Shown here: positions 1,333-32,211 of the stretch, piece by piece | Layout: the number at the start of each line of letters is the position of its first letter | Position numbering within the stretch: the first letter of the stretch is position 1 | Assembly: GCA_044222065.1 (NCBI GenBank) | Contig: JBGAOA010000007.1 | Coordinates: 6,462-70,461 of the forward strand | Direction of reading: 5' to 3' | DNA: 64,000 nt | Source of the DNA: Candidatus Eiseniibacteriota bacterium | GTDB lineage: Bacteria > Eisenbacteria > RBG-16-71-46 | Notes under the pieces: generated by a model | Database searches by the model: none | Told to the model about the DNA's origin: nothing | Seen by the model: the letters and a program-made list of their open reading frames with translations, nothing else | Translations under genes and position numbers: made by a program

Positions 1333-1480
1333 CGGTGAGGGTGGATTTCTATTGAGCGGCGCGCGCGCGGTCCCTAGGCTGAGCGGCGGCAATCCGTCCC
1401 TCGCGTGCCGCTCCGGATCCGGGCCGAAACCCTGCTTCCCTGCGCCCCGCCGACACTCGTCTCTCTTGCTGGAGGCTCCC

Positions 1481-5590: not shown

Positions 5591-5874
5591 CGCGCAGGAA
5601 GGCGTGTCCGTTCGTCAGGACGGCCGCTCGTCTGTCAGGCAGGCCCTGACGGAGCGTCGGTCAGGGCGCGGACGAACGCGTGCTCGAGGGGCACCGAAGG
5701 CGCGCCAATCGCCCGCCCGAGCGCACTGGACCGCCGTCACGATCCGGTGGAACGACCGCGGCACGCGCCATGCCATGAAGCCTCCCGACGGGATTCCGAC
5801 GGTTTCGTCCGCCTCGGCGGTCCGGCCCGGATGGCGTGCTCGCCTGCGGACTTCCTCGCGCGAAGGAGGCTGCG

Positions 5875-6492
5875 ATGCGCGAATTACGCATTCACGGGCG
5901 CGGCGGGCAGGGAGCGGTGATCGCCTCCAAGCTGCTCGCGACGGCCCTGTTTCTCGAAGGCAAGTCGGTGCAGTCGTTCCCCGCGTTCGGCGTCGAGCGC
6001 CGCGGCGCCCCGGTCGCGGCGTTCCTGCGCGTGAGCGACGGACCGATCCTGCTGCGCTGCGAAGTGACGACGCCCGACGACCTCATCGTGCTCGATCCCA
6101 CGCTCGTCCGCGCCGTGGACGTGACGTCGGGCCTGAAGGACGGCGGAGGCATCCTGATCAACGCCGACGGCGGGCCCGAATCGTTCGCGGAACTCGGGCG
6201 CCGCTTCCGAGTCGGCACCGTGAACGCGAGCGCGATCGCGCAGCGTCACGGCCTCGGCTCGCGCACCCAGCCGATCGTGAACACCGCGATCCTCGGAGCG
6301 TTCGCGACGTTCTCGGGGCTCGTTTCGCTCGAGTCCGTGTGCCGGGCGATCGCGAGCGACGTGCCGATCAAGACCGATGCGAACGTCGCCGCGGCGCGCG
6401 AAGCGGGCGCGGCCGCGCTCGTGGTCGTCGCCGGGCAGGCCGCCGCACGTGCGTTCGGCCCCGCGGGCGGACCGGAGGTGCTCCGTGCCTGA
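5875..6492 (+). CDS. porG: 2-oxoacid (pyruvate):ferredoxin oxidoreductase gamma subunit
   Basis: MRELRIHGRGGQGAVIASKLL... is a typical PorG/KorG N-terminus. GAAGGAGG RBS lies upstream of the ATG at 5875. Confidence 0.88.
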   Translation: MRELRIHGRGGQGAVIASKLLATALFLEGKSVQSFPAFGVERRGAPVAAFLRVSDGPILLRCEVTTPDDLIVLDPTLVRAVDVTSGLKDGGGILINADGGPESFAELGRRFRVGTVNASAIAQRHGLGSRTQPIVNTAILGAFATFSGLVSLESVCRAIASDVPIKTDANVAAAREAGAAALVVVAGQAAARAFGPAGGPEVLRA

Positions 6493-8320
6493 CGCGCGCG
6501 CGAACTCCGATCTGCGGCACGGCGTGCCGCCCGTGGCGGTGAGCAGCACCTCGACCCGCGTCAACAAGACCGGGTCGTGGAAGTACATCCGGCCGATCTA
6601 TCGCGACCGCGTCGCGCCCTGCAACCAGGGCTGTCCGGTCGGCATCGACATCGAGGGCTACATGAACCTCGCGCGCGAGGGGCGGGTCACGGAGGCGCGC
6701 GACCTGCTGCTGCGCGAGAACCCGCTGCCCGCGACCACGGGCCGGGTCTGCTACCACCCGTGCGAGTCGTCCTGCAATCGCGCGTCGTTCGACCAGCCGG
6801 TCGCGATCCACGCGGTCGAGCGCATGCTCGGCGACCTCGCGCTCGAAGCGCCGGTCGAACGGCCGGAGCGCACGCGCGACGAAACGGTCGCCGTCGTCGG
6901 CGCGGGCCCCGCGGGGCTCGCGTGCGCGTACCACCTCGCGCGCCTCGGCTACGGCGTCACCGTGTACGATGCCGATCCGGAGCCGGGCGGCGTGCTGCGC
7001 TGGGGCATTCCCGAGTACCGGCTTCCGAAGCGCGTGCTCGCGGGCGAGATCGCGCGCATCCGGGCGCTCGGCGTGCAGTTCGAATCGGGCGTGCGCGTCG
7101 GCCGCGACCTGCCATTCGAGGGGCTCTCGAAGCACGACGCCGTGTTCCTCGCGACCGGCGTCCACCGGAGCCGTCCGCTCGGCATCCCGGGCGAGGACTT
7201 CTCCGGCGTGTGGCGCGGACTCGAGCTGCTGCGCCGCGTGAACGCGGGCGAACGTCCGGACCTCGGCCGGCGCGTCGTCGTCGTGGGCGGAGGCAATACC
7301 GCCATGGACTGCGCGCGCACCGCCGTGCGGCTCGGCGCCGAGGTGACGGTGCTGTACCGGCGCGGCCGCGCCGAGATGCCGGCCAATCACGAAGAGGTCG
7401 AAGAGGCGCTGCACGAAGGTGTGCGGTTCGGCTTCCTCGCGGCGCCGCTCGCCGTGCTCGCGGACGAACGCGCGCCGGAAGAGGACGCGCTCGAGGCCAT
7501 CGGCGATACGTTCGGCGAGTTCGAATCGCTCGATGCGCGCCCGCGCGTCGCCGGCCTGCGCTGCATCCGCATGCAGCTCGGCGCGCCGGACGCCTCGGGT
7601 CGCCGCCGTCCCGAGCCGGTCGAGGGCTCGGACTTCACGGTGCCGTGCGACACGCTCGTGACCGCGCTCGGCGAGGACGCGGAACTCGAGTACCTGCCGA
7701 AGGAGCTCCAGACGCGCGGCGGCGCGATGCACGTAAGCCCGCTCGGGGCGACGAGCCGCACCGCGGTGTTCGCCGGCGGCGACATTACCGAGGAGCCGCA
7801 CACGGTGGCGTTCGCGATCGGCTCCGGGAAGCGCGCCGCGGTCGGCATCGACCACTACCTGCGGCTGCTGAACGGCGAGGACTCCGACGCGGTCGAGATC
7901 GGGGAGTTGCGCTTCGGACCCGAGGGCAACGTCTCGGCGACCCGCTGGCGCGACGACGACCCGGTGCTGCGCGTGGATCCGGTGAACGAGGTCGTGCGCT
8001 TCGAGGCCATCAACCCGGCGCACTTCGAGCACGCCGCGCGGCACGCGGACCGGCTGCGGCCGGCGCACGACTCCCGCCACGACTTCGGCGAAGCGAACCT
8101 CGGGCTCGCCCGCGAGGACGCGCTCGCCGAGGCGCGGCGCTGCTTCAACTGCGGCGTCTGCAACGGCTGCGAAGTGTGCCTCGTGTTCTGTCCCGACGTG
8201 GCGATCTCGCGGCGTTCGGACGGACGCTTCGACATCGCCTACGACTACTGCAAGGGCTGCGGCGTGTGCGCCGAGGAGTGCCCGCGCGGTTCGATCGTGA
8301 TGACGCGGGAGGGACTGTGA
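6485..8320 (+). CDS. Fusion protein: GltD-like NAD(P)H/FAD oxidoreductase (N-terminal Fe-S, FAD and NAD Rossmann motifs) joined to a C-terminal 2x[4Fe-4S] ferredoxin (PorD-like delta subunit)
   Basis: GTG at 6485 overlaps the porG stop. The N-terminal Cys cluster CNQGCPVG...CYHPCESSCNRA resembles GltD. Dinucleotide-binding motifs VAVVGAGPAGLACA and VVVVGGGNTAMDCA are present. The C-terminus carries CFNCGVCNGCEVCLVFCP...CKGCGVCAEECP, two ferredoxin CxxCxxCxxxCP motifs. It sits in the canonical porD position. Confidence 0.8.
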   Translation: MPDARANSDLRHGVPPVAVSSTSTRVNKTGSWKYIRPIYRDRVAPCNQGCPVGIDIEGYMNLAREGRVTEARDLLLRENPLPATTGRVCYHPCESSCNRASFDQPVAIHAVERMLGDLALEAPVERPERTRDETVAVVGAGPAGLACAYHLARLGYGVTVYDADPEPGGVLRWGIPEYRLPKRVLAGEIARIRALGVQFESGVRVGRDLPFEGLSKHDAVFLATGVHRSRPLGIPGEDFSGVWRGLELLRRVNAGERPDLGRRVVVVGGGNTAMDCARTAVRLGAEVTVLYRRGRAEMPANHEEVEEALHEGVRFGFLAAPLAVLADERAPEEDALEAIGDTFGEFESLDARPRVAGLRCIRMQLGAPDASGRRRPEPVEGSDFTVPCDTLVTALGEDAELEYLPKELQTRGGAMHVSPLGATSRTAVFAGGDITEEPHTVAFAIGSGKRAAVGIDHYLRLLNGEDSDAVEIGELRFGPEGNVSATRWRDDDPVLRVDPVNEVVRFEAINPAHFEHAARHADRLRPAHDSRHDFGEANLGLAREDALAEARRCFNCGVCNGCEVCLVFCPDVAISRRSDGRFDIAYDYCKGCGVCAEECPRGSIVMTREGL

Positions 8321-9483
8321 AGAAAGTCATCGTGGGCAACCACGCCGTCTCGTGGGGCGTCGCGCTCGCGCGCGCCGAAGTCATCGCCGCGTATCCGATC
8401 ACGCCGCAGACGCAGATCGTCGAGGAGCTGGCCGAGATGACGGACGACGGCCGGCTGAACGCACGCTTCATCAAGGTCGAGTCCGAGCACTCCGCGATGG
8501 CGGCGTGCATCGGCGCCTCGGCCGCGGGCGTGCGCGCGTTCACGGCCACGTCCTCACAGGGCCTGCTGCTCATGCACGAACTGCTGCACTGGGCGGGCCT
8601 CGGACGGCTGCCGATCGTGATGGCCGACATCAATCGCGCGGTCGCTCCCGGCTGGAACATCTGGACCGACCAGAACGACACGCTCGCCCAGCGCGACACG
8701 GGCTGGGTGCAGCTCTACTGCGAGAACAACCAGGAAGTGCTCGACACGACCGTGCAGGCGTTCAAGCTCGCCGAGCGCGTCGGGCTGCCGGTGATGATCG
8801 TGCTCGACGCGTTCTTCCTGTCGCACACGTCCGAGCCGGTGGACATCCCGGACGCCGCGGACGTGGACGCGTTCCTGCCGAAGCGCGACGCCGCGCTCAA
8901 GCTCGACACCGCGGACCCGCACGCGTTCGGCGCGCTGACGACGCCGGCCGTGTACATGGAGATGCGGCTGCGCCAGCAGGAGGCCTTCGACGGCGTGCCG
9001 GATGCCTACCGCGCGATCGACGCGGAGTGGGCCGCGCGCTTCGGGCGCTCGTGGTCGCCGGTCGAGGCCTATCGCTGCGACGGGGCGGACACGGTGCTCG
9101 TCACGTCCGGGACCGTGACCTCGACCGCGCGCCACGTCGTGAACGAGCGGCGCGCGCGCGGCGAGAAGGTCGGCCTCGTGAAGGTGAAGATGTTCCGGCC
9201 CTTCCCGACGCACCTCCTGCGCGAGACGCTCGCCGGGATCCCGCGCGTCGCGGTGCTCGATCGCAACATCTCGCCGGGGCACGGCGGGATCTTCGCCGAG
9301 GAGCTGCGTTCGTCGCTCTACGACCTCGCGGACTGGCTGCGCCCGCGCGTGGACGGCTACATCGTCGGGCTCGGCGGGCGCGACGTGACGCCGGCCGTGA
9401 TCGAGGAGTGCCTCGACCGCACCCGCGCGAAGGCGGCGTCGAGTTCGGTCCGGGAAGACCAGTGGGTGGGGGTGAAGCCATGA
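8317..9483 (+). CDS. porA: 2-oxoacid:ferredoxin oxidoreductase alpha subunit
   Basis: GTG at 8317 overlaps the upstream stop (GTGA). VKKVIVGNHAVSWGVALARAEVIAAYPITPQTQIVEEL is a typical PorA N-terminus. Confidence 0.9.
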   Translation: MKKVIVGNHAVSWGVALARAEVIAAYPITPQTQIVEELAEMTDDGRLNARFIKVESEHSAMAACIGASAAGVRAFTATSSQGLLLMHELLHWAGLGRLPIVMADINRAVAPGWNIWTDQNDTLAQRDTGWVQLYCENNQEVLDTTVQAFKLAERVGLPVMIVLDAFFLSHTSEPVDIPDAADVDAFLPKRDAALKLDTADPHAFGALTTPAVYMEMRLRQQEAFDGVPDAYRAIDAEWAARFGRSWSPVEAYRCDGADTVLVTSGTVTSTARHVVNERRARGEKVGLVKVKMFRPFPTHLLRETLAGIPRVAVLDRNISPGHGGIFAEELRSSLYDLADWLRPRVDGYIVGLGGRDVTPAVIEECLDRTRAKAASSSVREDQWVGVKP

Positions 9484-10376
9484 GCCAGATCTCGTTCAAG
9501 GACGCGGTCCCGCAGATCGAGCTGCTCGACTCCGGGCACCTCGCCTGTCCGGGCTGCGGCGCCGCGCTCGCGATGCGCATGGTGCTGAAGGCGCTCGGCG
9601 AGAAGACCGTCGTCGCCCTGCCCGCGTGCTGCTGGAGCATCATCGCGGGGCCGTACCCGCAGTCGTCGCTCAAGGTGCCGCTCTACCACACGGCGTTCGA
9701 GACCGGCGCGTCGGCGGCCTCGGGCATCAAGGCGGCGCTCGTCGCGCGCGGCGACACCGAGACCACGGTCGTCGCCTGGGCGGGCGACGGCGGCACGTTC
9801 GACATCGGCCTGCAGGCGCTGTCGGGCGCGGCCGAGCGGAACGAGGACATCCTGTACGTCTGCTACGACAACGAGGCGTACATGAACACCGGCATCCAGC
9901 GTTCGTCGGCGACGCCGTTCGGCGCGTGGACGACGACGACGCCCGGCCAGCACACGAAGTCGCATCCGAAGAAGGACATTCTCGCGATCCTCGCGGCGCA
10001 CCGCATTCCGTACGCCGCGAGCGCGACGCCGGCGTATCCCGAGGACCTGATGCGCAAGGTGCAGCGCGCGAAGGCGACGCGCGGCATGCGCTTCCTGCAC
10101 CTGCTCGCGCCGTGCCCTCCCGGCTGGAAGACGGAGGACTCCGAGACGATCGAACTCGCCCGGCTCGCCGTGCAGGCGCGCGTGTTCCCGCTGCTCGAGG
10201 TCGAGAACGGCGAGACGTGGCGGCTCACGATCGAGCCGCGCGGCGACTCGGTCGCCGAGTATCTCGAACGGCAGGGCCGCTTCCGCCACCTCGGCGACGA
10301 GGCCGTGCAGGCGATCCAGGTGCAGGTGGACGCGCGCTGGCGTTCGATCGAGCGGAGGGTGAAGGACGGGGTGTAG
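9480..10376 (+). CDS. porB: 2-oxoacid:ferredoxin oxidoreductase beta subunit (thiamine-diphosphate binding)
   Basis: ATG overlaps the porA stop (ATGA). CPGCG, GDGG and YDNEAYMNTG motifs of the TPP-binding beta subunit are present. Confidence 0.9.
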   Translation: MSQISFKDAVPQIELLDSGHLACPGCGAALAMRMVLKALGEKTVVALPACCWSIIAGPYPQSSLKVPLYHTAFETGASAASGIKAALVARGDTETTVVAWAGDGGTFDIGLQALSGAAERNEDILYVCYDNEAYMNTGIQRSSATPFGAWTTTTPGQHTKSHPKKDILAILAAHRIPYAASATPAYPEDLMRKVQRAKATRGMRFLHLLAPCPPGWKTEDSETIELARLAVQARVFPLLEVENGETWRLTIEPRGDSVAEYLERQGRFRHLGDEAVQAIQVQVDARWRSIERRVKDGV

Positions 10377-13023: not shown

Positions 13024-13989
13024 ATGGACCACGCGAATCGCGTTTACGACGACGTGCTGCAGACGCTGCCCGGTCCCGACAACCCGTCGCCGATGGTACG
13101 GCTGCGGCGGGTCGTGGCGGACGGCGGACTCGAGCTGTTCGCGAAGCTCGAGTGGATGAACCCGTTCGGCTCGGTGAAGGACCGCGCGGCGTCGTACCTG
13201 CTGCGCGACCTGGTCGAACGGGGCGAGCTGTCGGGCGAGCGGGGCGTCGTCGAGCCGACTTCGGGCAACACCGGAATCAGCATGGCCGCGATCGCGGCGG
13301 CCTACGGCGTGCCGATGCGCGCCGTCGTGCCGAACAAGGTGCCGCTCGAGAAGAAGGTGCTCCTCAAGATCGCGGGCGCCGAACTCGACGTCGTGAACGA
13401 CAACCTGTGCCCGAGCCCGGGAATGGGGGAGGGCTCGATCGGCCTCGCGAAGACGCGCGCCAGGGCCGAACGCGGGCGCTACGCGATGCCGAACCAGTAC
13501 GAGAACGACTTGAACGTGCGCGCCCACTACGAGACGACGGCGCCCGAGATCTGGAAGCAGACGGGCGGAAGGGTCACGCACCTGTTCGTCTCGCTCGGCA
13601 CGTCCGGCACCGCGATCGGGTGCGCGCGGTTCTTCCGCGACCGCGGCGCGAACGTGAAGGTCGTCGCCGTGCAGCCGAGCGAGGGCCACGACGTGCCGGG
13701 GCTGCGCAACCTGTCGGAGCTCGGCGTGTCGAAGCTGTTCGACCGCTCGCTGATCGACGAACTGATCGAAGTGCCCTACGAGCTCGCGTACACGCGCGCG
13801 CTCGAACTCGCGCGCCGCGAGGGTCTGCTCGCGGGGCCGAGTTCCGGGCTGATCCTCGAGGGCGCGCGCCGGGTCGCCGAACGCGGGGACCGCGGACTCG
13901 GCGTGCTGATCTTCCCCGACAACGCCTTCAAGTACGTCTCGAACTTCGTGAAGCACGCGCCGGAACTGGCCGAGGGAACGACGCCCTGA
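13024..13989 (+). CDS. Cysteine synthase family PLP-dependent enzyme (fold type II; CysK/CysM-like)
   Basis: SVKDRAA PLP-lysine motif, GNTG and GTSGT glycine loops. 321 aa with no CBS domains. Confidence 0.82.
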   Translation: MDHANRVYDDVLQTLPGPDNPSPMVRLRRVVADGGLELFAKLEWMNPFGSVKDRAASYLLRDLVERGELSGERGVVEPTSGNTGISMAAIAAAYGVPMRAVVPNKVPLEKKVLLKIAGAELDVVNDNLCPSPGMGEGSIGLAKTRARAERGRYAMPNQYENDLNVRAHYETTAPEIWKQTGGRVTHLFVSLGTSGTAIGCARFFRDRGANVKVVAVQPSEGHDVPGLRNLSELGVSKLFDRSLIDELIEVPYELAYTRALELARREGLLAGPSSGLILEGARRVAERGDRGLGVLIFPDNAFKYVSNFVKHAPELAEGTTP

Positions 13990-14036
13990 CGTCGGAACGC
14001 GGGGACCGCGAGCGGTCCCGTAGGAGGACACGCACC

Positions 14037-14909
14037 ATGAGCGGATACGCGCATCCCGAAGCACTCGTCACGACCGACTGGGTCCGGGCGCATCTCGGCG
14101 ATCCGAACGTGAAGGTGGTCGAGGTGGACGTGGACACCCAGGCCTACGAAGCGGGCCACATCCGCGGCGCCGTGGCGCTCAACTGGCAGACCGAGCTGCA
14201 GGATCTGCTGACGCGCGACATCGTGTCGAAGGCCGAGTTCGAAGCGCTGCTCGGCCGGAACGGCATCCGCGCCGAGGACACCGTCGTGCTCTACGGGGAC
14301 CACAACAACTGGTTCGCGGCGTACGCGTTCTGGCTGTTCAAGATCTACGGGCATCGGGACGTCCGACTGATGAACGGCGGGCGCGTGAAGTGGCTCGCCG
14401 AGGACGACAAGGAACTTGTCGTGGACCGCACCGCCGTGTCGCCGTCGCGCTACGTCGCGGGGGCGCCGGACCTGACGCTGCGCGCGCGCGTGCTCGACGT
14501 GCTGCAGTCGCAGGAGGGGCGAACGCACAACCTCGTGGACGTACGCAGCCCGGACGAGTTTACGGGCAAGGTCATCGCGCCTCCGGGCATGAACGAGACC
14601 GCGCAGCGGGCGGGCCACGTGCCCGGGGCGAAGAGCGTGCCGTGGTCCTCGGCCGTGAACGCGGACGGGACGTTCAAGGGCGCGGAGGAGCTGCGCGCGA
14701 TCTACCTGGAGCGCGCGGCGCTCGATCCCGCGAAGCCGACGATCGCGTACTGCCGCATCGGCGAGCGCTCGAGCCATACGTGGTTCGTGCTCCGCTACCT
14801 GCTCGGACTCCCGGACGTCCGCAACTACGACGGCTCGTGGACCGAGTACGGCTCGATGGTGGGGCTGCCCATCGAACGCGACGCGCCCGTCGCCGTGACG
14901 GTCGCCTGA
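14037..14909 (+). CDS. sseA: Thiosulfate / 3-mercaptopyruvate sulfurtransferase (tandem rhodanese domains)
   Basis: AGGAGG RBS before the ATG at 14037. Active-site CRIGERS loop, and an overall SseA/TST-like sequence. Confidence 0.85.
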   Translation: MSGYAHPEALVTTDWVRAHLGDPNVKVVEVDVDTQAYEAGHIRGAVALNWQTELQDLLTRDIVSKAEFEALLGRNGIRAEDTVVLYGDHNNWFAAYAFWLFKIYGHRDVRLMNGGRVKWLAEDDKELVVDRTAVSPSRYVAGAPDLTLRARVLDVLQSQEGRTHNLVDVRSPDEFTGKVIAPPGMNETAQRAGHVPGAKSVPWSSAVNADGTFKGAEELRAIYLERAALDPAKPTIAYCRIGERSSHTWFVLRYLLGLPDVRNYDGSWTEYGSMVGLPIERDAPVAVTVA

Positions 14910-15024: not shown

Positions 15025-17367
15025 GTGGCGGTGGGCGAGCGGAGCCGACTGCGGTGCGAGGTGCGTGGCGCCGTCCAGGGCGTCGGCTTCCGGCCCTTCG
15101 TCTACCGACTCGCGACCGGGCTCGGACTCGACGGCTGGGTGCTCAACGACGCGCGCGGCGTGTTCCTCGAGGTCGAGGGTTCGCGCGCGACGCTCGAGCG
15201 CTTCTCCGAGCGCCTCACGGCGGAAGCGCCGCCGCACGCCGTGATCGAGTCGCTCGAGCGCGCCTGGCTCGAGCCCGCGCCGTTCACGGGCTTCGAGATC
15301 CGACACAGCGACGGCGCCGGCGAGAAGAGCGTCGCCGTGCTGCCCGACCTCGCGACCTGCCCCGACTGCCTCGAGGAGACGCTCGAGGCTCACTCGCGAC
15401 GCTTCGGCTACCCGTTCACGAACTGCACGCTGTGCGGCCCGCGCTTCACGATCGTGCGCGCGCTGCCCTACGACCGGCCGAACACGACGATGGCGGGCTT
15501 CGCGCTGTGCGAGCCGTGCGCGCGCGAGTACGGCGATCCCCTCGACCGCCGATTCCACGCGCAGCCGATCGCCTGCCCGGCGTGCGGACCGCACGTGGAG
15601 CTGTGGGACGACCAGGGCGAGTCCCTCGCCACGGGCGAAGCGGCGATCGCGTCCGCGCTCGAGACGCTGAGCTCGGGCCGCATCGTGGCGGTGAAGGGAC
15701 TCGGCGGCTTCCACCTGATGTGCGACGCGCGCGACGAGGCGGCGGTCGCGCGGCTGCGCGAGCGCAAGCGTCGCGAGGAGAAACCGCTCGCCGTGATGGC
15801 CGCGACGCTCGACGATGCCCGAGCGCTCGGCGAGATCGACGGCGAGGCGGCGCATGCGCTCGCGTCGTCCGAGGCGCCGATCGTGCTCGTGGTCCGGCGC
15901 GCGGACGCGCCGCTCGCCCCGGGCGTCGCGCCGCGCCTCGCCACGGTCGGCGTGATGCTGCCCGCGACCCCGCTCCACCACCTGCTCGCCCGCGGCTTCG
16001 GCGCACCGCTCGTCGCGACGAGCGGGAATCACAGCGAAGAGCCGATCTGCACGGACGACCGCGAGGCGCTCGACCGGCTCGGCGGCATCGCGGATCGCTT
16101 CCTCGTGCACGACCGTCCGATCGCGCGCCACGTGGACGACAGCGTGGGCTGGATCGCGCACGGCCGCTTCGCACTGCTGCGCCGCGCGCGTGGATTCGCG
16201 CCCCTGCCCGTGCGCGTCGCGGACTCGCGCCGCGTCGTGCTCGCGGTCGGCCCGCACCTCAAGAACACGATCGCGCTCGCGGTCGGCCCGCGCGCGTTCG
16301 TGAGCCAGCACCTCGGCGACCTCTCGACGCCGGAGGCGAATCTCGCGTTCGCTCGTGCGATCCGCGACGTGGTCGCGCTGTACGAGGCGCGGCCCGAGGC
16401 GATCGCGCACGATCTTCACCCCGACTACGAATCGACGCGCTGGGCGCAGCGGCTCGCGAAGGGCGCCGCATCACGGGAGGGCGCCGAAGCGGCGCTCGTG
16501 GAAGCCGCGCGCCGGCTCGTCCCCGTCCAGCACCACCACGCGCACCTTGCGGCGTGCCTCGCCGAGAACGGCGTCGCGGGCCCGGCGCTCGGCGTCGTGT
16601 GGGACGGCACGGGCTACGGCACCGACGGCACGATCTGGGGCGGCGAGTTCCTGCTCGGCGACGCGTCCGGCTTCGAGCGCGTCGGGCACCTGCGGTCGTT
16701 CCGCCTGCCCGGGGGCGAGATCGCCGTGCGCGAGCCGTGGCGCGTCGCGCTCGCGCTGCTCCACGACGTGCTCGGCGCGGAGGCGTTCGAGCGCGACGAC
16801 CTCGTCCCGGGCGTCACGCCCACGGCCGAAACCCGGCGCGTGCTCGCCCGGATGATCCCGAAGGATCTCCATTCGCCCGCGACGACGAGCGCCGGGCGGC
16901 TCTTCGACGCGGTCGCTGCGCTCGCCGGCGTGCGCACCCACGCGGCGTACGAAGGGCAGGCCGCGATCCTGCTCGAAGCCGCGGCCGACCGCGCCCGCCC
17001 GGACGCCGGGGCCGCGTATCCGCTGCCGCTCGTCGAGAACGACGGAGGCGCGCGCGTGCTCGACTGGCGGCCGATGGTGCGCGCGATCCTCGCGGATCGG
17101 GATCGCGGCGTCCCGCCCGAGGCGATCGCGGCGCGATTCCACGACGGCCTCGTCGAGGCGATCGTCACCGTCGCCGCGGCGGTCAGGGCGCCGCGCGTCG
17201 CGCTCACGGGCGGCTGCTTCCAGAACCGCCGGCTCGCCGAGCGCGCCGCCGACCGCCTGCGCTCGGCCGGCCACGAGGTGCTGCTCCACCGGCTCGTCCC
17301 GCCGAACGACGGCGGCGTGAGCCTCGGTCAGATCGCCGTCGCGCGCGCCGCGCTCGAGCGCGGCTGA
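15025..17367 (+). CDS. hypF: [NiFe]-hydrogenase maturation carbamoyltransferase HypF
   Basis: GTG start after GGAGGAGG. Acylphosphatase-like N-terminus, two CxxC...CxxC zinc fingers (CPDCLEE...CTLCGPRF and CEPCARE...CPACGP), a YrdC-like domain and a Kae1/HypF C-terminus with HHHAH. Confidence 0.9.
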   Translation: MAVGERSRLRCEVRGAVQGVGFRPFVYRLATGLGLDGWVLNDARGVFLEVEGSRATLERFSERLTAEAPPHAVIESLERAWLEPAPFTGFEIRHSDGAGEKSVAVLPDLATCPDCLEETLEAHSRRFGYPFTNCTLCGPRFTIVRALPYDRPNTTMAGFALCEPCAREYGDPLDRRFHAQPIACPACGPHVELWDDQGESLATGEAAIASALETLSSGRIVAVKGLGGFHLMCDARDEAAVARLRERKRREEKPLAVMAATLDDARALGEIDGEAAHALASSEAPIVLVVRRADAPLAPGVAPRLATVGVMLPATPLHHLLARGFGAPLVATSGNHSEEPICTDDREALDRLGGIADRFLVHDRPIARHVDDSVGWIAHGRFALLRRARGFAPLPVRVADSRRVVLAVGPHLKNTIALAVGPRAFVSQHLGDLSTPEANLAFARAIRDVVALYEARPEAIAHDLHPDYESTRWAQRLAKGAASREGAEAALVEAARRLVPVQHHHAHLAACLAENGVAGPALGVVWDGTGYGTDGTIWGGEFLLGDASGFERVGHLRSFRLPGGEIAVREPWRVALALLHDVLGAEAFERDDLVPGVTPTAETRRVLARMIPKDLHSPATTSAGRLFDAVAALAGVRTHAAYEGQAAILLEAAADRARPDAGAAYPLPLVENDGGARVLDWRPMVRAILADRDRGVPPEAIAARFHDGLVEAIVTVAAAVRAPRVALTGGCFQNRRLAERAADRLRSAGHEVLLHRLVPPNDGGVSLGQIAVARAALERG

Positions 17368-17377
17368 CGCCGGCGGC

Positions 17378-18055
17378 TCAGCGCCGCGCGGACGCCGCGC
17401 GCTTCGCCGCGGCCCGCGCCGCGAGCAGCGCGCACCAGTCGTCGAGACCGGCGCCGCTCGTGGCGGATACGGTCAGGATCACGCCGTCCGGCCGGAGCGC
17501 CGCGATCTGCTCGCGCACGACCGACTCGTGGAATCCGGGCACGTGCGGCAGCAGGTCCGACTTCGTGATCAGCGCGACGTCGGCGCGCGCGAAGATCGCC
17601 GGGTACTTGAACGGCTTGTCCTCGCCCTCGGGCACGGACAGCAGCACGACCTTGAAGTCCTCGCCGAGGTCGTACGACGTCGGGCAGATCAGGTTGCCGA
17701 CGTTCTCGATCAGGAGCAGGTCGAGGTCGCCGAACGCGGCGCGTTCGAGCGCCGCGTCGATCTGGCGCGCATCGAGGTGACAGGCCCCGCCCGTGAGGAT
17801 CTGGTGCGCCGGAATGCCGCTCGCGCGCAGCCGGTCGGCATCGCGCTCGGTCGCGATGTCGCCGTCGAGTGCGGCGATCCGGAGCTTCGGCGCGAGGCGC
17901 TCGGCCGTGCGTTCGAGCAGCGTCGTCTTGCCCGAGCCCGGCGACGAGATGAGGTTCACGACCAGCGTGCCGCGTTCGGCGAAGCGCGCGCGCAGGGATT
18001 CCGCGGCGGCGCGATTGGCGGCGAGCACGTGCTCGCGAACTTGGACGTCGGTCAC
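17378..18055 (-). CDS. hypB: HypB-like G3E-family metallochaperone GTPase that lacks the N-terminal CxxCGC nickel-binding motif
   Basis: GTG start at 18055, preceded by GGGAGGGCGAG. Motifs ISSPGSGKTTLLE (P-loop) and ENVGNLICP. Convergent with hypF. Confidence 0.78.
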   Translation of the reverse strand: MTDVQVREHVLAANRAAAESLRARFAERGTLVVNLISSPGSGKTTLLERTAERLAPKLRIAALDGDIATERDADRLRASGIPAHQILTGGACHLDARQIDAALERAAFGDLDLLLIENVGNLICPTSYDLGEDFKVVLLSVPEGEDKPFKYPAIFARADVALITKSDLLPHVPGFHESVVREQIAALRPDGVILTVSATSGAGLDDWCALLAARAAAKRAASARR

Positions 18056-22967: not shown

Positions 22968-23750
22968 CTAGCGGCCCGTCAGCATTCGGAGATACGCGTC
23001 GATCCAGCCGTCGCCCCACAGCAGCGCGATCATCGCGGCCGGCGCGAGGAACGTCCCGAACGGAATTTCGGTCGTGCCGCCCGTGCCTCGACGGCGCATG
23101 ACGACGAGACCATAGGCCGCGCCGCCGAGGGCGGCGAGGAAGATCGTGAAGAGCGAGAGCCGCCATCCGAGCACGGCGCCGAACATGGCCGCGAGCTTCA
23201 CGTCGCCGAATCCCATGCCTTCGATCTTCCGCACCCGGATCCACAGCTCGGCGAGGCCCCACAGGAGACCTGCGCCCGCGACGATCCCGAACAGCGCGTG
23301 GCGAGCGCCGCCCGGCCAGGTCAGCGCCGCGGCGAGCCCGATCAGCGTGCCGGGGAACGTCAGCACGTCGGGGAGGAGCTGCACGTCGAGGTCGATCCAG
23401 AAGAGCGCGACGAGCAGGAATCCCCAGAGCGCGAGGAACGGCGTGTCCCACCCGAGCGGGCGCAGCGTGACGAGCGCGAGCGCCCACGCGCCGCACCACA
23501 GCTCGGTGAGCGGGTAGCGCGGCGAGACGCGCGCGCCGCAATGGCGGCAACGTCCGAGCGCGAGCGCCCACGACAGCACCGGCACGAGATCGCGGGGCCC
23601 GAGCACGTGGCCGCACGAAGTGCACGCCGATCGGCCGCGCACCCACGACACGCCGCGCGGCACCCGGTGCGCGAGCGCCGTCACGGCGCTCCCCATGACG
23701 AACCCGAGGACCGTGACGAGGACCGGGAGCGAGGCGGCGAGGAGCGTCAC
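22968..23750 (-). CDS. pilD: Prepilin peptidase (A24 family) with an N-terminal zinc-finger domain
   Basis: CTSCGH...CRHCG tetra-Cys segment. Multi-TM protein with catalytic-Asp regions FWIDLDVQLLPD and GMGFGDVKL. Confidence 0.85.
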   Translation of the reverse strand: MTLLAASLPVLVTVLGFVMGSAVTALAHRVPRGVSWVRGRSACTSCGHVLGPRDLVPVLSWALALGRCRHCGARVSPRYPLTELWCGAWALALVTLRPLGWDTPFLALWGFLLVALFWIDLDVQLLPDVLTFPGTLIGLAAALTWPGGARHALFGIVAGAGLLWGLAELWIRVRKIEGMGFGDVKLAAMFGAVLGWRLSLFTIFLAALGGAAYGLVVMRRRGTGGTTEIPFGTFLAPAAMIALLWGDGWIDAYLRMLTGR

Positions 23751-23861
23751 GATTCCGCTCCGGACGGCGCCCGCCGCGGACGATCATTGCTCCGACGGAA
23801 CGCGTCTGCGAAACTTCCCGCGCCGTTCATCCTCGAGTCACCGGCTGGAGCCCGCCCGTCC

Positions 23862-24179
23862 GTGCGCATCCTGTTCTTCCTCGCTCTCATCGCCAACAGC
23901 TTCGATCTGGTCGCGACCGCGCTCGGCATCCACTGGTTCGGCAACCGCGAGGGCAATCCGCTGCTCGCCGGCATCGCCCACGAACACTGGATCGCGTTCG
24001 TGCTGTTGAAGGGGCTGCTGATTCCGCTCCTGATCGTGCGCCTCTACCGCTTCCGCGCCCGCACTCCGATGCTCGCCGGCGCGGGCCTCGCGCTCGTCAC
24101 CGTCGCGCTCACCGTCGCCGTCGGCCAGTGGATCGGCTGGATGGCGGGCGTCGTGACCGTGACGACCACGCGCGGCTGA
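23862..24179 (+). CDS. Hypothetical small membrane protein (DUF5658-like)
   Basis: GTG at 23862. Three hydrophobic segments. Weak family resemblance only. Confidence 0.4.
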   Translation: MRILFFLALIANSFDLVATALGIHWFGNREGNPLLAGIAHEHWIAFVLLKGLLIPLLIVRLYRFRARTPMLAGAGLALVTVALTVAVGQWIGWMAGVVTVTTTRG

Positions 24180-24224
24180 ACGGACCGCGGCCCGCGCCGC
24201 GCTCCGTCCGCTCGCGCGGGACCG

Positions 24225-25523
24225 TTACTGCTGATCGGGCAGGATACGCGGCGTGATCTCGATCACCAGGTCCGTCTTCTTGGTCTGGATGGACTGGTGC
24301 TGGAACAGATAGCCGAGCCCGGGGATCGAGCCGAGGATCGGGACCTTCGAGACCGTGGACGTCTTCTCCTCGGTGAGTAGCCCGCCGATGATCACGGAGT
24401 TCCCGTCCTTGAGCCGCACCGTCGTCGTGGCCTGGCGCGTCGCGACGATCGGCAGGTCCGCGTTCGGACCCTTGAAGCCGGTCACCGAGCTGACCTCCGG
24501 CGTGATCGTCGTCGTGATGTAGCCGTCGGCGTTGATGAGCGGCGTGATCTTGAGCTTCACGCCGACTTCTTCCTTCTCGATGCGCTGCGTCGGCGCCGCG
24601 GCGCCGCCGGCGAAGACGGTCCCGCTCACGACGTAGGGAATGCGCGAGCCGATCAGCATGCTCGCTTCGTGACCGTTCAGCGTCGCGAGTTTCGGATTCG
24701 CGAGCACACGCGCGTTGCCGTCGCGGACCAGCAGGTCCACGGCGGCCCGGAACGTCTTGCCGACGCGGCTGAAGTTCTTGAGCTGCCAGACGTCGTGCGT
24801 GCCCGGCGTGTTCGGGAACACGTTGATGCCGCTGAACGTCGTGTTCTCGTTCTCGCCGCTGCTGCCGGTGAGCGAGTCGTAGTTTCCTTCGACGAACACG
24901 AAGCCCTGGCGCGTGAGCATGTCCCAGTCGATGCCGAGCCTCTTCACGTCGTCCGTGGACACCTCGACGACGCGCGCCTCGAGCATCACCTGCTTCGCCG
25001 GCACGTCCATGCGCGTCACGATCGTCGTGATCTCGGACAGCACGCGCGGACTCGTGACGACGATGAGCCGGTTCCCGCCCTTGTCCACCGTGACGTCGGC
25101 CTTGAGGCTCGCGAGCGCGTTCTTCACCTCGTTCGCGTCGGCGTAGCGCAGGTCCACGACGTACGACGACAATCCCGTCTCGTCCTTGAGCGCCGCCTTG
25201 TCGGCGACGAGGATCGAATTCCCGATGCGCTCGTAGGCGAGGCCCGCCGCGCGCACGACGAGGTTCACGGCCTGGTCGATCGGCACGTCCCTCATGTGGA
25301 TCGTGATCCGGTCGTTCGTGACGCCGGGGCCGGTGATGATGTTGAGCCCGCCCTTCTCGGCGAGGATCTTCAGCACGCCCGGGAGTGCGGCGTCCTCGGC
25401 GTCGAGCGAGACCTTGGGGCCGTCCGTGGCCTGGGCCGTGAGGCCCGGAGCGAAGGCCGCGAGCGCGAACAGCGCGAGCACGGCGCCGAGCGCGAGCGCT
25501 CGTGGAGCGCGGGCGAGCATCAT
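24225..25523 (-). CDS. pilQ: Type IV pilus secretin PilQ
   Basis: Signal peptide, N0/N1-like domains, and a C-terminal secretin domain (VPILGSIPGLGYLFQHQS...). GGAGA RBS. ATGA overlap with the upstream gene. Confidence 0.85.
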   Translation of the reverse strand: MMLARAPRALALGAVLALFALAAFAPGLTAQATDGPKVSLDAEDAALPGVLKILAEKGGLNIITGPGVTNDRITIHMRDVPIDQAVNLVVRAAGLAYERIGNSILVADKAALKDETGLSSYVVDLRYADANEVKNALASLKADVTVDKGGNRLIVVTSPRVLSEITTIVTRMDVPAKQVMLEARVVEVSTDDVKRLGIDWDMLTRQGFVFVEGNYDSLTGSSGENENTTFSGINVFPNTPGTHDVWQLKNFSRVGKTFRAAVDLLVRDGNARVLANPKLATLNGHEASMLIGSRIPYVVSGTVFAGGAAAPTQRIEKEEVGVKLKITPLINADGYITTTITPEVSSVTGFKGPNADLPIVATRQATTTVRLKDGNSVIIGGLLTEEKTSTVSKVPILGSIPGLGYLFQHQSIQTKKTDLVIEITPRILPDQQ

Positions 25524-26053
25524 GGAGTGGTGTCTCCTTTCAAGGGCAGCCGCAGGACGATCTGCTCGCCGCCGCGATCGAGCACGACCTGCTCGCGGGT
25601 GATGCTGACGACTCGGAAATCCGAAAACAGCGTGTTCTCGCGCACCGACCAGTCGCGTCCGCCCCAGCGCACGGTCGCGCGCGGATCGGCGTCCCACACG
25701 ATCGAGGTGAGCAGCGGACGCGGCTTCTCGACGGGCGGCGCCGGAACGCGCGGCCGCGCCGGACCGGGCGCGGGATCGGGCGTTGCGATCGCGACGCCCG
25801 CGAACGGATCGCGGACGGGCGGCGTCACGGACGAACCGCGCGCGAGCAGCAGCGTCAGGCGCGAGTAGGGGTCCACGTGCGGCGCGCCGCGCGTCTGAGC
25901 GCGCTGCCAGGCGCCCGACTGACGGAGCGCCGTGGTCGTGACGTTCAGCACGAGCACGAGCGTGAGGAGCCCGAGGACGGGCGGCAGGAGCTGCGCGGGC
26001 GAGAGCTTCACGGACGTTCCGCCGGACGTTGCAGGACGAGGCGCTTCATCCAC
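25520..26053 (-). CDS. pilP: Putative pilus assembly protein in the PilP position
   Basis: Single N-terminal TM segment (LLPPVLGLLTLVLVL) and a Pro-rich region. Lies between pilO and pilQ. The assignment rests mainly on position. Confidence 0.5.
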   Translation of the reverse strand: MDEAPRPATSGGTSVKLSPAQLLPPVLGLLTLVLVLNVTTTALRQSGAWQRAQTRGAPHVDPYSRLTLLLARGSSVTPPVRDPFAGVAIATPDPAPGPARPRVPAPPVEKPRPLLTSIVWDADPRATVRWGGRDWSVRENTLFSDFRVVSITREQVVLDRGGEQIVLRLPLKGDTTP

Positions 26054-26571
26054 AGCTCGATCATCGGTTCGTCTCCGGCGCGCGTCAGGGTGAAGCGCTC
26101 GATCGCATCGAGCTTGCCCGAACGCTCGATGCCGTCGAGGAAGCGGACGAACTCGGGGTAGCCGCCGCGGAGCTTCAGGTGCGCGCGCAGCTCGATCGTG
26201 CGCTTGTTCGTCGTCACCGGCCCGGGTTCGGTGAGCATCACGCCCGAGCCGGCGCGCTGCGCGAGCGACGTGAGGTCTTCGAGCATTGTCACCGTGAGCT
26301 GGCCCGAGTTGCCCTTCTCGCTCGCCTCGCGGCCGGGCAGCGAGTTCAGCGTCACGAGCGAGAACACCGCTGGCGGCAGCGGAACCGTGGATCCGCCGCC
26401 ACCCGGGCTTTCGACGCCGCTGAACGGCTGGAGCGCCTTCTGGGCCGCCTCGTAACGCCGCACGGTCGGCAGGAACCAGAACGCGTGCAGTCCGAGCAGC
26501 ACGAGGCAGATCGCGACGCCGCCCGCGAGCTGCCAGTGGCGGCGGATCGTGGCGAGGAGGACGGGGTTCAT
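26008..26571 (-). CDS. pilO: Type IV pilus assembly protein PilO-like
   Basis: ATG at 26571 overlaps the pilN stop. Single TM (VAICLVLLGLHAFWFLP) followed by a periplasmic domain. Confidence 0.62.
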   Translation of the reverse strand: MNPVLLATIRRHWQLAGGVAICLVLLGLHAFWFLPTVRRYEAAQKALQPFSGVESPGGGGSTVPLPPAVFSLVTLNSLPGREASEKGNSGQLTVTMLEDLTSLAQRAGSGVMLTEPGPVTTNKRTIELRAHLKLRGGYPEFVRFLDGIERSGKLDAIERFTLTRAGDEPMIELWMKRLVLQRPAERP

Positions 26572-27143
26572 CGGCACTCGATCGTGAACTCGGCAGTCGG
26601 ATCCGAGGCGGCGCTCGAACTCGTCGAACCGAGCTGGATGTTGCGATAGCCGCGCGAGAACGCGGAATCCGAGTGCAGCGTCGAGACGAAGTTCATGACG
26701 CTTCGCATGCGCTCCTGCGCGTCGGCCGCGCGCAGCGTGCCGGTGATGATGAACGGCGGCGAGTCCACGCCCGTGACGTTCTGCGGATTCAAAGCGAGGG
26801 ACGAGACGCGTGCGGTCGGCGGCGTCAGGTCGGCGAGCCGCCCCATGCGCTCGCGCCAGCGCCGCGGATTCTCGACCGCCGACTCGATCTGGGCGATCTC
26901 CGCGGGCGTGAACGACCACGCGACGCGCTGCCCGGCTTCGACGCGCAGGCTCTTCGCCTGGCGCTCCATCGTCGCGACGCGGCGCGAGAACATGACGGCG
27001 TTCAATCCGTACAGGCCCAGCAGCAGCGCCATCACGCCGAAGTACGCGACCCACACGCCGAGCGCCACGACGCGGCGCCGCGCGCGCGCCTGCTCCTGTT
27101 CCCACGCTTCGCGGCGAAAGTTGATCGTGAACGTCGTGCTCAC
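26568..27143 (-). CDS. pilN: Type IV pilus assembly protein PilN-like
   Basis: GTG at 27143 overlaps the pilM stop. TM segment VVALGVWVAYFGVMALLLGLYGL. Fimbrial-assembly (PilN) topology. Confidence 0.68.
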   Translation of the reverse strand: MSTTFTINFRREAWEQEQARARRRVVALGVWVAYFGVMALLLGLYGLNAVMFSRRVATMERQAKSLRVEAGQRVAWSFTPAEIAQIESAVENPRRWRERMGRLADLTPPTARVSSLALNPQNVTGVDSPPFIITGTLRAADAQERMRSVMNFVSTLHSDSAFSRGYRNIQLGSTSSSAASDPTAEFTIECR

Positions 27144-28186
27144 ACGGACCTCAGCGCGAGGCCGTAGGCCTGCGCGAACTGCGGGCCCGTGCGCGCGCCC
27201 GCCGATTCGGCGTCGCGCTCGAGCGGGCTGAAGAGCAGCACGGGGAATCCGATCAGCTCCCCGAGCCGCGCCGCGAGTCCCGGAATGCGCGCCGTGCCGC
27301 CCGAGAGCCACAGCTTCATCGGATCCGGCAGACGCCCCATCGTGCGGTAGAACGCGAACGAGCGGCGCAGTTCCTCGACGAGATCGCGGCGCAGCGCATC
27401 GAGCATCGCCTGCATCTCGGGGGAGCCCCAGTCCACGCGGAAGCCCGGCTGGTCCGAGCCGGCGGCGAGCTTCCACTCGGCGGCCTCGTCGAGCGGGATG
27501 CGGGTCTCGCGCGCGATCGCGCGCGTGAGCGTCGCGCCGCCGAATTCGATGCGCCGGCCGAAGTACGGCTCGCCGCGCTGCCACAGCGTGAGGTGCGAGG
27601 ACTGGTGGCCGATGTCGAGCAGCAGCTGCGCCTCGCGCTCGGTCTCGCGTCCGTGCACGAGCGCGTTCGTCAGCGCGAGCGGCGCCGCGTCCACGATGTC
27701 GGCTTCGAGGCCGAGAGCCGTGAGCGGCGCCGAGCAGCGCGCGAGCCGCTCCTGCGAGACCGCGGCGAGCAGCACTTCGAGGCGCTTCTCGGACGGGTAG
27801 CGCGAGAGGATCTGGTAGTCCACGACCATGGAGCCGAGATCGAACGGCACGTGCTTGCGGGCTTCGAAGCGGAGCGCCGGACCGACCTCGTCGTCGGCGA
27901 GCAGCGGCAGCGTGATCTGCTTCACGAACACGTCCGGGCCCGAGAGGCCGAGCGTGAGGCCGCGAAGTCCGCGCGGCGACAGGCCGATCTGGCCGAACGC
28001 GTCGGCGACGAGGCGCACGACCGCATCCGTCGGCGGCGGCCCGTCACCGCTTTCGCCACCCGGCATCGAGACTTCGGCGAACAGCGGGCGCCCCGCGCCC
28101 ACGCCGACGGGCAACGCGACCAGTTTGATGGAGAACGTGCCGATGTCGAGCCCGACCCAGGGTCGGGAACGGATGCCAGACTGCAT
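27140..28186 (-). CDS. pilM: Type IV pilus assembly protein PilM (actin-like ATPase fold)
   Basis: VGLDIGTFSIKLVAL start motif. 348 aa. First gene of the pilMNOPQ block. Confidence 0.85.
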   Translation of the reverse strand: MQSGIRSRPWVGLDIGTFSIKLVALPVGVGAGRPLFAEVSMPGGESGDGPPPTDAVVRLVADAFGQIGLSPRGLRGLTLGLSGPDVFVKQITLPLLADDEVGPALRFEARKHVPFDLGSMVVDYQILSRYPSEKRLEVLLAAVSQERLARCSAPLTALGLEADIVDAAPLALTNALVHGRETEREAQLLLDIGHQSSHLTLWQRGEPYFGRRIEFGGATLTRAIARETRIPLDEAAEWKLAAGSDQPGFRVDWGSPEMQAMLDALRRDLVEELRRSFAFYRTMGRLPDPMKLWLSGGTARIPGLAARLGELIGFPVLLFSPLERDAESAGARTGPQFAQAYGLALRSV

Positions 28187-28202
28187 GTCGGGGAGTTTTA
28201 GC

Positions 28203-30387: not shown

Positions 30388-30415
30388 CGATTGCGGCCCG
30401 TCCGGGGCCGTGCGA

Positions 30416-30811: not shown

Positions 30812-30939
30812 TCCGACGTCTCCTCTGCGGGTGGGCTCCCGTGTGACGGCCGCCCGGCGAACGTCGCCGGGGGTGTTGCGTTCGTGGGGATTCGCCGGCC
30901 GGATTCCAGCGGAACCCGGGTTCGGCGCGGTCGCGACTC

Positions 30940-32208: not shown

Positions 32209-32211
32209 TGC

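What the first reader, a model, noticed from the sequence alone, without database searches (positions are those of the whole stretch)
15025..18055. Orphan, convergent hypF and hypB-like genes with no hydrogenase or other hyp genes nearby; HypB lacks its nickel-binding N-terminus
The HypF gene is full length, with acylphosphatase, two zinc fingers, YrdC-like and Kae1-like domains. It ends 10 bp from the 3' end of an oppositely oriented HypB-like G3E GTPase. That GTPase starts directly at the GTPase core and has no CxxCGC or His-rich metal-binding segment. No hypCDE or hydrogenase structural genes occur in the 64 kb. Either the maturation genes are scattered, or this pair serves a different metallocentre. 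HypF-like carbamoyltransferases and G3E chaperones are used elsewhere for non-hydrogenase cofactors.
Basis: partly seen in the sequence, partly recalled or inferred. Interest (0 to 1): 0.5.

Follow-up and report, generated by a model that had tools for sequence, protein, structure and literature searches.

The report
Detached hypF and hypB maturation genes
Two ordinary, intact [NiFe]-hydrogenase maturation genes (hypF and a short-type hypB) sit tail to tail away from their usual partner genes, which fits the scattered hyp genes of this lineage and gives no sign of a new metal-cofactor pathway.

Summary
hypF (15025-17367, +, 780 aa) and hypB (17378-18055, -, 225 aa) are convergent with 10 nt between their stop codons. 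No hypA/C/D/E, hydrogenase subunit or maturation protease was detected anywhere in the 64 kb.

The features read as unusual are ordinary. Both proteins score far above the NCBIfam equivalog cut-offs. The HypB model is itself only 217 positions long. The protein aligns end to end with solved short HypBs and keeps the P-loop and the CH-X30-C nickel site. This is the described type 1 HypB.

The closest relatives carry hypF-C-D-E converging on hypB-hypA. One of them has a group-3b-like [NiFe]-hydrogenase directly upstream of hypF. Other equally close relatives show the cluster broken up:
- hypF alone
- hypF-hypC only
- hypB converging on hypF with no hypCDE and no hypA, as here

HypF keeps 186 of 187 strongly conserved columns and HypB keeps 36 of 36.

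The best reading is that these are canonical maturation factors whose partners lie elsewhere in the genome. I could not check that, because the source assembly was unreachable. Low interest.

The parts
15025..17367 (+). hypF, carbamoyltransferase HypF, 780 aa, GTG start
   Evidence: TIGR00143 equivalog at 787 bits (cut-off 466), covering profile positions 2-739 of 741. Five Pfam domains. It keeps 186 of 187 columns that are at least 90% conserved in 82 relatives.
15055..15300 (+). HypF acylphosphatase domain (aa 11-92), motif VRGAVQGVGFR at aa 13
   Evidence: PF00708, 1.4e-21; motif found.
15358..15585 (+). HypF two zinc fingers, CxxC-x18-CxxC at aa 112-137 and 162-187
   Evidence: PF07503, two stretches; regular-expression match.
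15664..16185 (+). HypF YrdC-like domain (aa 214-387), KGLGGFHL at aa 224
   Evidence: PF01300, 7.4e-44; motif found.
16228..17331 (+). HypF Kae1-like domain (aa 402-769) with HHHAH (aa 503), DGTGYGTD (aa 527) and GGCFQN (aa 729)
   Evidence: PF17788 and PF22521; motifs found.
17368..17377 (.). 10-nt spacer between the convergent stop codons of hypF and hypB
   Evidence: Read directly from the sequence. No intrinsic-terminator-like site was detected.
17378..18055 (-). hypB, type 1 (short) GTPase-type HypB, 225 aa, GTG start
   Evidence: TIGR00073 at 248.7 bits (cut-off 121), covering profile positions 3-212 of 217; UreG scores only 51.8 bits. End-to-end alignment to 4LPS, 2WSM and 2HF8. All 36 strongly conserved columns kept.
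17924..17947 (-). HypB P-loop SPGSGKTT (aa 37-44)
   Evidence: Identical to the H. pylori HypB P-loop in the alignment.
17684..17782 (-). HypB G-domain metal site CH-X30-C (Cys92, His93, Cys124), including switch II ENVGNL
   Evidence: Regular-expression match. It aligns with Cys106/His107/Cys142 of 4LPS. The CHX30-34C motif is described in PMC13202556.
18064..18070 (-). Shine-Dalgarno-like GGGAGGG, 8 nt upstream of the hypB GTG start
   Evidence: Read directly from the sequence.

Best explanation
These are the canonical [NiFe]-hydrogenase maturation genes hypF and hypB, detached from the rest of the hyp cluster.

HypF would make the carbamoyl-adenylate intermediate and carbamoylate the C-terminal cysteine of HypE, the first step towards the two cyanide ligands of the Fe(CN)2CO moiety. 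HypB, a type 1 G3E GTPase, would bind nickel at its Cys-His-Cys site at the dimer interface and hand it to HypA on GTP hydrolysis, for insertion into the hydrogenase large subunit. These mechanisms are inferred from family membership and intact motifs. They were not tested here.

The ancestral layout in this lineage is hypF-C-D-E converging on hypB-hypA. In the window, hypC-D-E and hypA are not between or beside the pair, so they and the structural genes must lie elsewhere in the genome. That step is inferred and could not be verified. By analogy with relative L091, the structural genes are perhaps a cytosolic group-3b-type hydrogenase.
For: Shown by tool results:
- Both proteins are equivalog-level matches.
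- All diagnostic motifs are present.
- HypB aligns over its full length to solved HypBs, and only weakly to UreG.
- HypF keeps 186 of 187 and HypB keeps 36 of 36 strongly conserved columns, so there is no sign of decay.
- Thousands of HypBs of about 220 aa are 67-75% identical.
- The nearest relatives carry hypFCDE converging on hypBA: L086, the P0002 contig, L007 and L091.
- L091 adds a four-subunit ShyBCDA-like hydrogenase and a protease directly upstream of hypF. Its HypB is 68% identical to the window's.
- The cluster is fragmented in equally close relatives: L088 has hypF alone, L172 has hypF-hypC only, and L171 has hypB then about 2.1 kb then hypF on the opposite strand, with no hypCDE or hypA.
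- A direct hypF/hypB tail-to-tail junction of under 300 nt occurs in 5 other loci, all inside full hyp clusters.
- E. coli K-12 has a detached hypF.
- Codon-position GC is uniform across the junction, with GC3 of 0.93 in both genes.
Against: - No hypA/C/D/E or hydrogenase gene lies within 15 kb upstream or 46 kb downstream.
- That isolation is uncommon. hypC follows hypF directly in 107 of 131 loci. Only 3 of 58 loci with at least 8 kb on both flanks lack both hypCDE and hydrogenase genes.
- The presence of the partner genes in the source genome could not be checked. The 85,888-bp NCBI contig is not indexed, and the genome is not among the species representatives scanned.
Confidence: 0.85

Rival explanations
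1. The pair is a leftover. The lineage recently lost its hydrogenase together with hypCDE and hypA, and hypF and hypB are still intact but functionless and on their way to being lost.
For: The ancestral cluster hypFCDE converging on hypBA appears here stripped of exactly hypCDE and hypA. Relatives show progressive fragmentation: L088, L172 and L171. No partner gene lies in the 64 kb.
Against: There are no frameshifts, truncations or lost motifs. 186 of 187 and 36 of 36 conserved columns are kept. hypB has a good ribosome-binding site. A similar arrangement without hypCDE or hypA occurs in a different organism, L171, whose HypB is 74% identical. This implies the arrangement has been retained across speciation.
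Confidence: 0.07
2. The pair has been recruited to a non-hydrogenase metallocentre. HypB would deliver nickel to another enzyme, and HypF would carbamoylate or cyanate a different acceptor.
For: Type 1 HypB with HypA is linked to a putative nickel-dependent isoprene reductase in an Acetobacterium that lacks [NiFe]-hydrogenase genes (PMC10134865). H. pylori HypA and HypB also serve urease (PMC13202556). The window holds no hydrogenase genes.
Against: None of the papers read here gives a precedent for HypF working without HypE; the isoprene-reductase operon in the Acetobacterium paper has HypA and HypB but no HypF. No candidate client enzyme (urease, CODH, IsrA-like oxidoreductase next to hypB) or HypA is adjacent. 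Flanking genes are not conserved with hypF or hypB in any relative. Both proteins are orthologous (62-74% identity) to those in canonical hydrogenase/hyp clusters.
Confidence: 0.04
3. The tail-to-tail junction is an assembly artefact, a chimeric join inside a hyp cluster that removed hypCDE.
For: The source is a metagenome-type contig, and the join is only 10 nt. In relatives the same 10-12 nt gap separates hypE from hypB.
Against: Both genes are complete with proper stop codons. Composition and GC3 are uniform across the junction. Direct hypF/hypB junctions exist in five independent loci, and a junction without hypCDE exists in L171. hypA is also missing on the other side of hypB, which a single chimeric join would not explain.
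Confidence: 0.02

Closest known systems
Type 1 (short N-terminus) GTPase-type HypB, e.g. Helicobacter pylori HypB (PDB 4LPS), Archaeoglobus fulgidus HypB (2WSM) and Methanocaldococcus jannaschii HypB (2HF8)
   Same: Same length class (221-242 aa). The alignment is end to end (E 1e-51, 8e-46 and 4e-35). It shares the SPGSGKT P-loop, the ENVGNL switch II and the Cys-His...Cys metal site, and has no CxxCGC or His-rich region (PMC13202556).
   Different: It lacks even the 17-residue non-metal-binding extension of H. pylori HypB. No hypA gene lies next to it.
E. coli HypB (NF007775, 290 aa; type 2 with an N-terminal CxxCGC site)
   Same: The G domain aligns to positions 79-287 of the 290-position model (222.7 bits).
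   Different: The first ~78 positions of the E. coli-type model, which include the high-affinity nickel site, are absent. The score is below that model's cut-off of 385, so it is not this subtype.
E. coli HypF in the hydN-hypF operon
   Same: Same five-domain carbamoyltransferase. It is encoded apart from hypABCDE, 13 kb away in K-12. From established knowledge, it serves hydrogenases encoded elsewhere on the chromosome.
   Different: In E. coli the hyc hydrogenase-3 operon and hypA-E are still within 15 kb. Here nothing related lies within 15 kb upstream or 46 kb downstream.
hyp cluster of metagenomic relative L091 (HypF 62%, HypB 68% identical): ShyB/C/D/A-like group-3b-type hydrogenase, protease, then hypF-C-D-E converging on hypB-hypA
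   Same: Orthologous HypF and HypB, in the same convergent orientation.
   Different: The window lacks the hydrogenase, the protease, hypC, hypD, hypE and hypA. hypB abuts hypF directly rather than hypE.
Acetobacterium wieringae isr operon (HypA x2, type 1 HypB and a putative isoprene reductase)
   Same: A TIGR00073-type HypB of 225 aa without an N-terminal metal site, in a locus with no hydrogenase (PMC10134865).
   Different: There HypB is in an operon with HypA and its candidate client enzyme, and no HypF is involved. Here HypF is present and no client or HypA is adjacent.

Membership tests
HypF carbamoyltransferase (TIGR00143) | Whole-protein score above the curated equivalog cut-off | tested here: met
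   787.2 bits against a cut-off of 466.1, covering profile positions 2-739 of 741.
HypF carbamoyltransferase (TIGR00143) | Domain order: acylphosphatase, two CxxC-x18-CxxC zinc fingers, YrdC-like, Kae1-like | tested here: met
   PF00708, PF07503 (two stretches), PF01300, PF17788 and PF22521, in that order; motifs confirmed.
HypF carbamoyltransferase (TIGR00143) | Conservation of family-invariant residues | tested here: met
   186 of 187 columns that are at least 90% conserved in 82 relatives are kept. The single difference is G to P at aa 86.
HypF carbamoyltransferase (TIGR00143) | Carbamoyl transfer to the C-terminal Cys of HypE; a hypE gene in the same genome | not testable with these tools
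   No hypE lies in the 64-kb window. The rest of the genome was unreachable.
HypB, GTPase type (TIGR00073) | Whole-protein score above the curated equivalog cut-off, and above sister G3E families | tested here: met
   248.7 bits against a cut-off of 121.2. UreG scores 51.8 bits against a cut-off of 204. No CobW or MeaB model reached E<=1e-3. The top PDB hits are HypBs, and UreG reaches only 1e-13 to 1e-14.
HypB, GTPase type (TIGR00073) | G3E P-loop, switch II and [NST]KxD nucleotide-binding motifs | tested here: met
   SPGSGKTT (aa 37-44), ENVGNL (aa 117) and TKSD (aa 164).
HypB, GTPase type (TIGR00073) | G-domain metal site CH-X30-34-C | tested here: met
   Cys92-His93-X30-Cys124; motif as defined in PMC13202556.
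HypB, GTPase type (TIGR00073) | Nickel transfer to HypA; a hypA gene in the same genome | not testable with these tools
   No hypA lies in the window. The genome was unreachable.
E. coli-type HypB (NF007775; types 2 and 3 with an N-terminal CxxCGC +/- His-rich region) | N-terminal CxxCGC high-affinity nickel site | tested here: not met
   There is no CxxCGC and no His run in the protein or in the 50 in-frame upstream codons. The score of 222.7 bits is below the cut-off of 385.
UreG urease accessory GTPase (TIGR00101) | Score above the curated cut-off | tested here: not met
   51.8 bits against a cut-off of 204.2.

The most novel reading that the evidence does not exclude
The source genome has no [NiFe]-hydrogenase and no hypC, hypD, hypE or hypA, yet keeps an intact, selectively maintained HypF/HypB pair. 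L171 would be a second such case. The pair would then work in a non-hydrogenase pathway, for example nickel delivery to another enzyme combined with carbamoyl or cyanide chemistry on a new acceptor.
Probability: 0.04. Interest if true: 0.65.

Novelty: already known. Interest (0 to 1): 0.12.

Why it matters
As it stands it matters little. It is a correct annotation (hypF plus a type 1 hypB) and one more example of hyp genes being dispersed in a poorly known, high-GC, probably Eisenbacteria-like lineage. It predicts that the organism has a [NiFe]-hydrogenase, plausibly a cytosolic NAD(P)-linked group 3b type as in relative L091. That prediction is relevant to inferring its metabolism. It would become interesting only if the complete genome lacked hydrogenase and hypCDEA, because HypF has no known role outside cyanide-ligand synthesis for [NiFe]-hydrogenases.

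Tried and rejected
1. Reaching the source genome.
- Exact-protein look-ups of HypF, HypB (also as P0001) and the Zn-peptidase gene found no indexed contig.
- The cluster look-up gave only 'NCBI, one contig of 85,888 bp' with no accession.
- The species-representative scan found nothing closer than 62%.
- The metagenome scan also found nothing closer than 62%.
- So the decisive whole-genome test could not be run, and the roughly 22 kb of the contig outside the window was not seen.

2. A hidden N-terminal extension of HypB was rejected. A ribosome-binding site sits at the called start, and the upstream frame has no Cys or His motifs.

3. Degraded remnants of hypA/C/D/E or hydrogenase genes in the window were sought and none found.

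4. A functional link to the flanking genes was rejected. Those genes are the PLP enzyme and rhodanese upstream of hypF, and the aspartyl-protease/PDZ protein upstream of hypB. None is conserved next to hypF or hypB in relatives.

5. The GltD-like oxidoreductase at 6377-8320 was considered as an IsrA-like client for HypB. It is fused to a PorD domain inside a 2-oxoacid:ferredoxin oxidoreductase cluster and lies 7 kb away, so it was not pursued.

6. Literature on Eisenbacteria and hydrogenases was uninformative.

7. Promoter/terminator, Rfam and tRNA scans found nothing.
Full report
**What is there.** The window is a 71% GC sequence. At the reported coordinates there are two convergent genes.
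- hypF, 15025-17367 (+), encodes 780 aa. It has the full HypF architecture: acylphosphatase, two HypF zinc fingers, a YrdC-like domain and the two Kae1-like subdomains.
- hypF scores 787 bits on the NCBIfam equivalog TIGR00143, against a cut-off of 466.
- hypB, 17378-18055 (-), encodes 225 aa. It scores 248.7 bits on the HypB equivalog TIGR00073 (cut-off 121), against 51.8 bits for UreG (cut-off 204).
- The two stop codons are 10 nt apart.
- The hypB GTG start has a GGGAGGG ribosome-binding site 8 nt upstream.
- HypB has no CxxCGC motif and no His-rich tract. The upstream reading frame has none either, so the start is not mis-called.

**Is the pair really isolated?** Yes, within the window.
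- I predicted genes by codon-position GC and scanned 56 of them against Pfam.
- The neighbours include a PLP enzyme and a rhodanese upstream of hypF, and an aspartyl-protease/PDZ protein upstream of hypB.
- Further out lie a GNAT, a zinc peptidase, a type IV pilus cluster and a 2-oxoacid:ferredoxin oxidoreductase cluster.
- A 2-oxoacid dehydrogenase complex, metal transporters (Nramp, CDF) and several secreted proteins complete the set.
- There is no hydrogenase subunit, protease, HypA, HypC, HypD or HypE.
- Profile HMMs for those seven families, built from 80 HypF loci, gave no hit in the window at E<=1e-4.
- The same profiles gave nothing better than E=0.2 on all six-frame ORFs of at least 20 aa. 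No pseudogene remnants were detectable either.

**Is the short HypB unusual?** No.
- The TIGR00073 model is only 217 positions long, and the protein covers positions 3-212.
- It aligns end to end with H. pylori HypB (4LPS, E=1e-51), A. fulgidus HypB (2WSM, 221 aa, E=8e-46) and M. jannaschii HypB (2HF8). UreG structures reach only 1e-13 to 1e-14.
- The P-loop SPGSGKTT, switch II ENVGNL, TKSD and the metal site Cys92-His93-X30-Cys124 are all present.
- A 2026 JBC paper divides GTPase-type HypBs into three N-terminal subgroups. Type 1 (e.g. H. pylori) has no N-terminal metal site. All types keep the CHX30-34C G-domain site (PMC13202556). This protein is type 1.
- A database search returned thousands of HypBs. 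The 120 best are 217-238 aa long and 67-75% identical.

**Are the genes intact and under constraint?** HypF keeps 186 of the 187 columns that are at least 90% conserved among 82 relatives. HypB keeps all 36 such columns. All HypF signature motifs are present: VxGxVQGVGFR, two CxxC-x18-CxxC, KGxGGFHL, HHxAH and GGCFQN.

**Context in relatives.** I collected 167 HypF loci from species-representative genomes, metagenomes and exact-protein look-ups. I annotated them with the same HMMs.
- hypC follows hypF directly in 107 of 131 loci with enough downstream sequence.
- Of 58 loci with at least 8 kb on both flanks, 54 have hypC, hypD or hypE and 40 have hydrogenase subunit genes.
- Only 3 of those 58 have neither. 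The window's degree of isolation is therefore a minority state.

The relatives nearest to the window explain it.
- L086 (GCA_044223005.1; HypF 63%, HypB 71%), the P0002 contig (HypB 74%), L007 and L091 all carry hypF-hypC-hypD-hypE converging on hypB-hypA. In L086 and the P0002 contig, where gene coordinates were read, 10-12 nt separate the hypE and hypB stops.
- In an Eisenbacteria contig the same two blocks are separated by a type I-C CRISPR-Cas locus.
- L091 (HypF 62%, HypB 68%) has more directly upstream of hypF. It has a four-gene hydrogenase whose subunits best match the sulfhydrogenase ShyB/C/D/A models. This is a group-3b-like architecture that scores below those models' narrow cut-offs. 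A maturation protease follows. This ties the HypF/HypB clade to a real [NiFe]-hydrogenase.
- The cluster is visibly breaking up in the same neighbourhood of sequence space. L088 is one of the closest HypFs found (66%, tied with P0123, whose context was not examined). It has hypF alone, followed by a convergent secreted-protein gene.
- L172 (65%) has hypF-hypC and then unrelated genes.
- L171 (HypB 74%) has hypB, about 2.1 kb of other genes, and then hypF on the opposite strand. It has no hypCDE between them and no hypA. That is essentially the window's arrangement in a second organism.
- Direct hypF/hypB tail-to-tail junctions also occur in five more distant loci. There hypB is the last gene of a hypC-D-E-A-B operon.
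- E. coli K-12 is the textbook precedent. hypF sits in the hydN-hypF operon 13 kb from hypABCDE. From established knowledge, it serves hydrogenases encoded far away.

**Interpretation.** The simplest account is that these are canonical maturation genes.
- HypF would carbamoylate HypE as the first step of cyanide-ligand synthesis.
- HypB would load nickel through HypA.
- The mechanisms are inferred from family membership and intact motifs. They were not tested.
- In this lineage the hyp cluster has been dispersed, so hypCDE, hypA and the hydrogenase lie elsewhere.
- I could not verify that last step. The source contig (NCBI, 85,888 bp) is not indexed for look-up. The genome is not among the scanned representatives, and no closer relative appeared in the metagenome scan.

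**Rivals.**
- A relic pair in a genome that lost its hydrogenase is possible. It is disfavoured by perfect motif and column conservation, and by the recurrence of the arrangement in L171.
- Recruitment to another metallocentre has a partial precedent for HypA and HypB: the isoprene-reductase operon in an Acetobacterium without [NiFe]-hydrogenase (PMC10134865), and urease in H. pylori. There is no such precedent for HypF, and no candidate client or HypA is nearby.
- A chimeric assembly join is unlikely. The composition is uniform, both genes are complete, and hypA is independently missing on the other side.

**Verdict.** The 'scattered genes' reading is supported by comparative evidence, and the 'different metallocentre' reading is unsupported. 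The 'missing nickel-binding N-terminus' is the normal type 1 HypB. These are known families in a known, if minority, arrangement. Interest is low.

Noticed in passing
window 5836-10376: A 2-oxoacid:ferredoxin oxidoreductase cluster (gamma, alpha and beta subunits). Its 647-aa member (6377-8320) is a GltD-like NAD(P)-binding flavoprotein with Fer4_20, fused at its C-terminus to a PorD-type delta subunit.
   Followed up: partly
window 22968-35069 (- strand): A complete-looking type IV pilus cluster: prepilin peptidase, secretin, PilM and PilO-like proteins, three N-methyl pilins, PilC-like T2SSF, PilB-like T2SSE with an MshEN domain, and a PilT-like ATPase.
   Followed up: no
window 1466-5524, 36572-37642, 53704-55848: Large secreted proteins ending in FlgD_ig or Por_Secre_tail-type C-terminal domains. 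Together with 71% GC and the best HypB and HypF hits named Eiseniibacteriota, this suggests an Eisenbacteria-like (FCB-group) source. The taxonomy was not established.
   Followed up: no
window 13024-14909: A cysteine-synthase-like PLP enzyme and a two-domain rhodanese lie directly upstream of hypF on the same strand, with a 115-nt gap. This pairing is not seen next to hypF in any relative examined, so it is probably coincidental.
   Followed up: partly
window 39406-40144: crcB (fluoride channel) with a DUF190 gene immediately downstream of a 2-oxoacid dehydrogenase E1 gene. Rfam detected no fluoride riboswitch at gathering thresholds.
   Followed up: partly
window 43953-46642: A DtxR-family regulator with a FeoA domain, followed by an Nramp transporter fused to a C-terminal universal stress protein domain (667 aa).
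   Followed up: no
L083 14800-22286 and L001 12788-20515: In an Eisenbacteria relative, a type I-C CRISPR-Cas locus (Cas3, Cas5d, Csd1, Cas7, Cas4, Cas1, Cas2) appears to sit between hypFCDE and hypBA. This inference comes from the matching cas gene series at the ends of two loci; the contig join was not verified.
   Followed up: no
L171 8373-9080; L001 10754-11467: A conserved membrane protein of 235-237 aa (71-74% identical between the two loci) lies directly downstream of hypB. It has an N-terminal H-x5-DH motif and a weak DsbD_2 (UreH-like) match, which makes it a candidate nickel permease. It has no homologue in the window.
   Followed up: partly
L083 8824-9900; L169 8835-9914; L171 4122-5177: An AIRS-family paralogue (351-359 aa, about 27-33% identical to HypE) lacks HypE's C-terminal ...PRIC cysteine motif. 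It recurs next to hyp genes in three relatives, and its function is unknown. It is absent from the window.
   Followed up: partly
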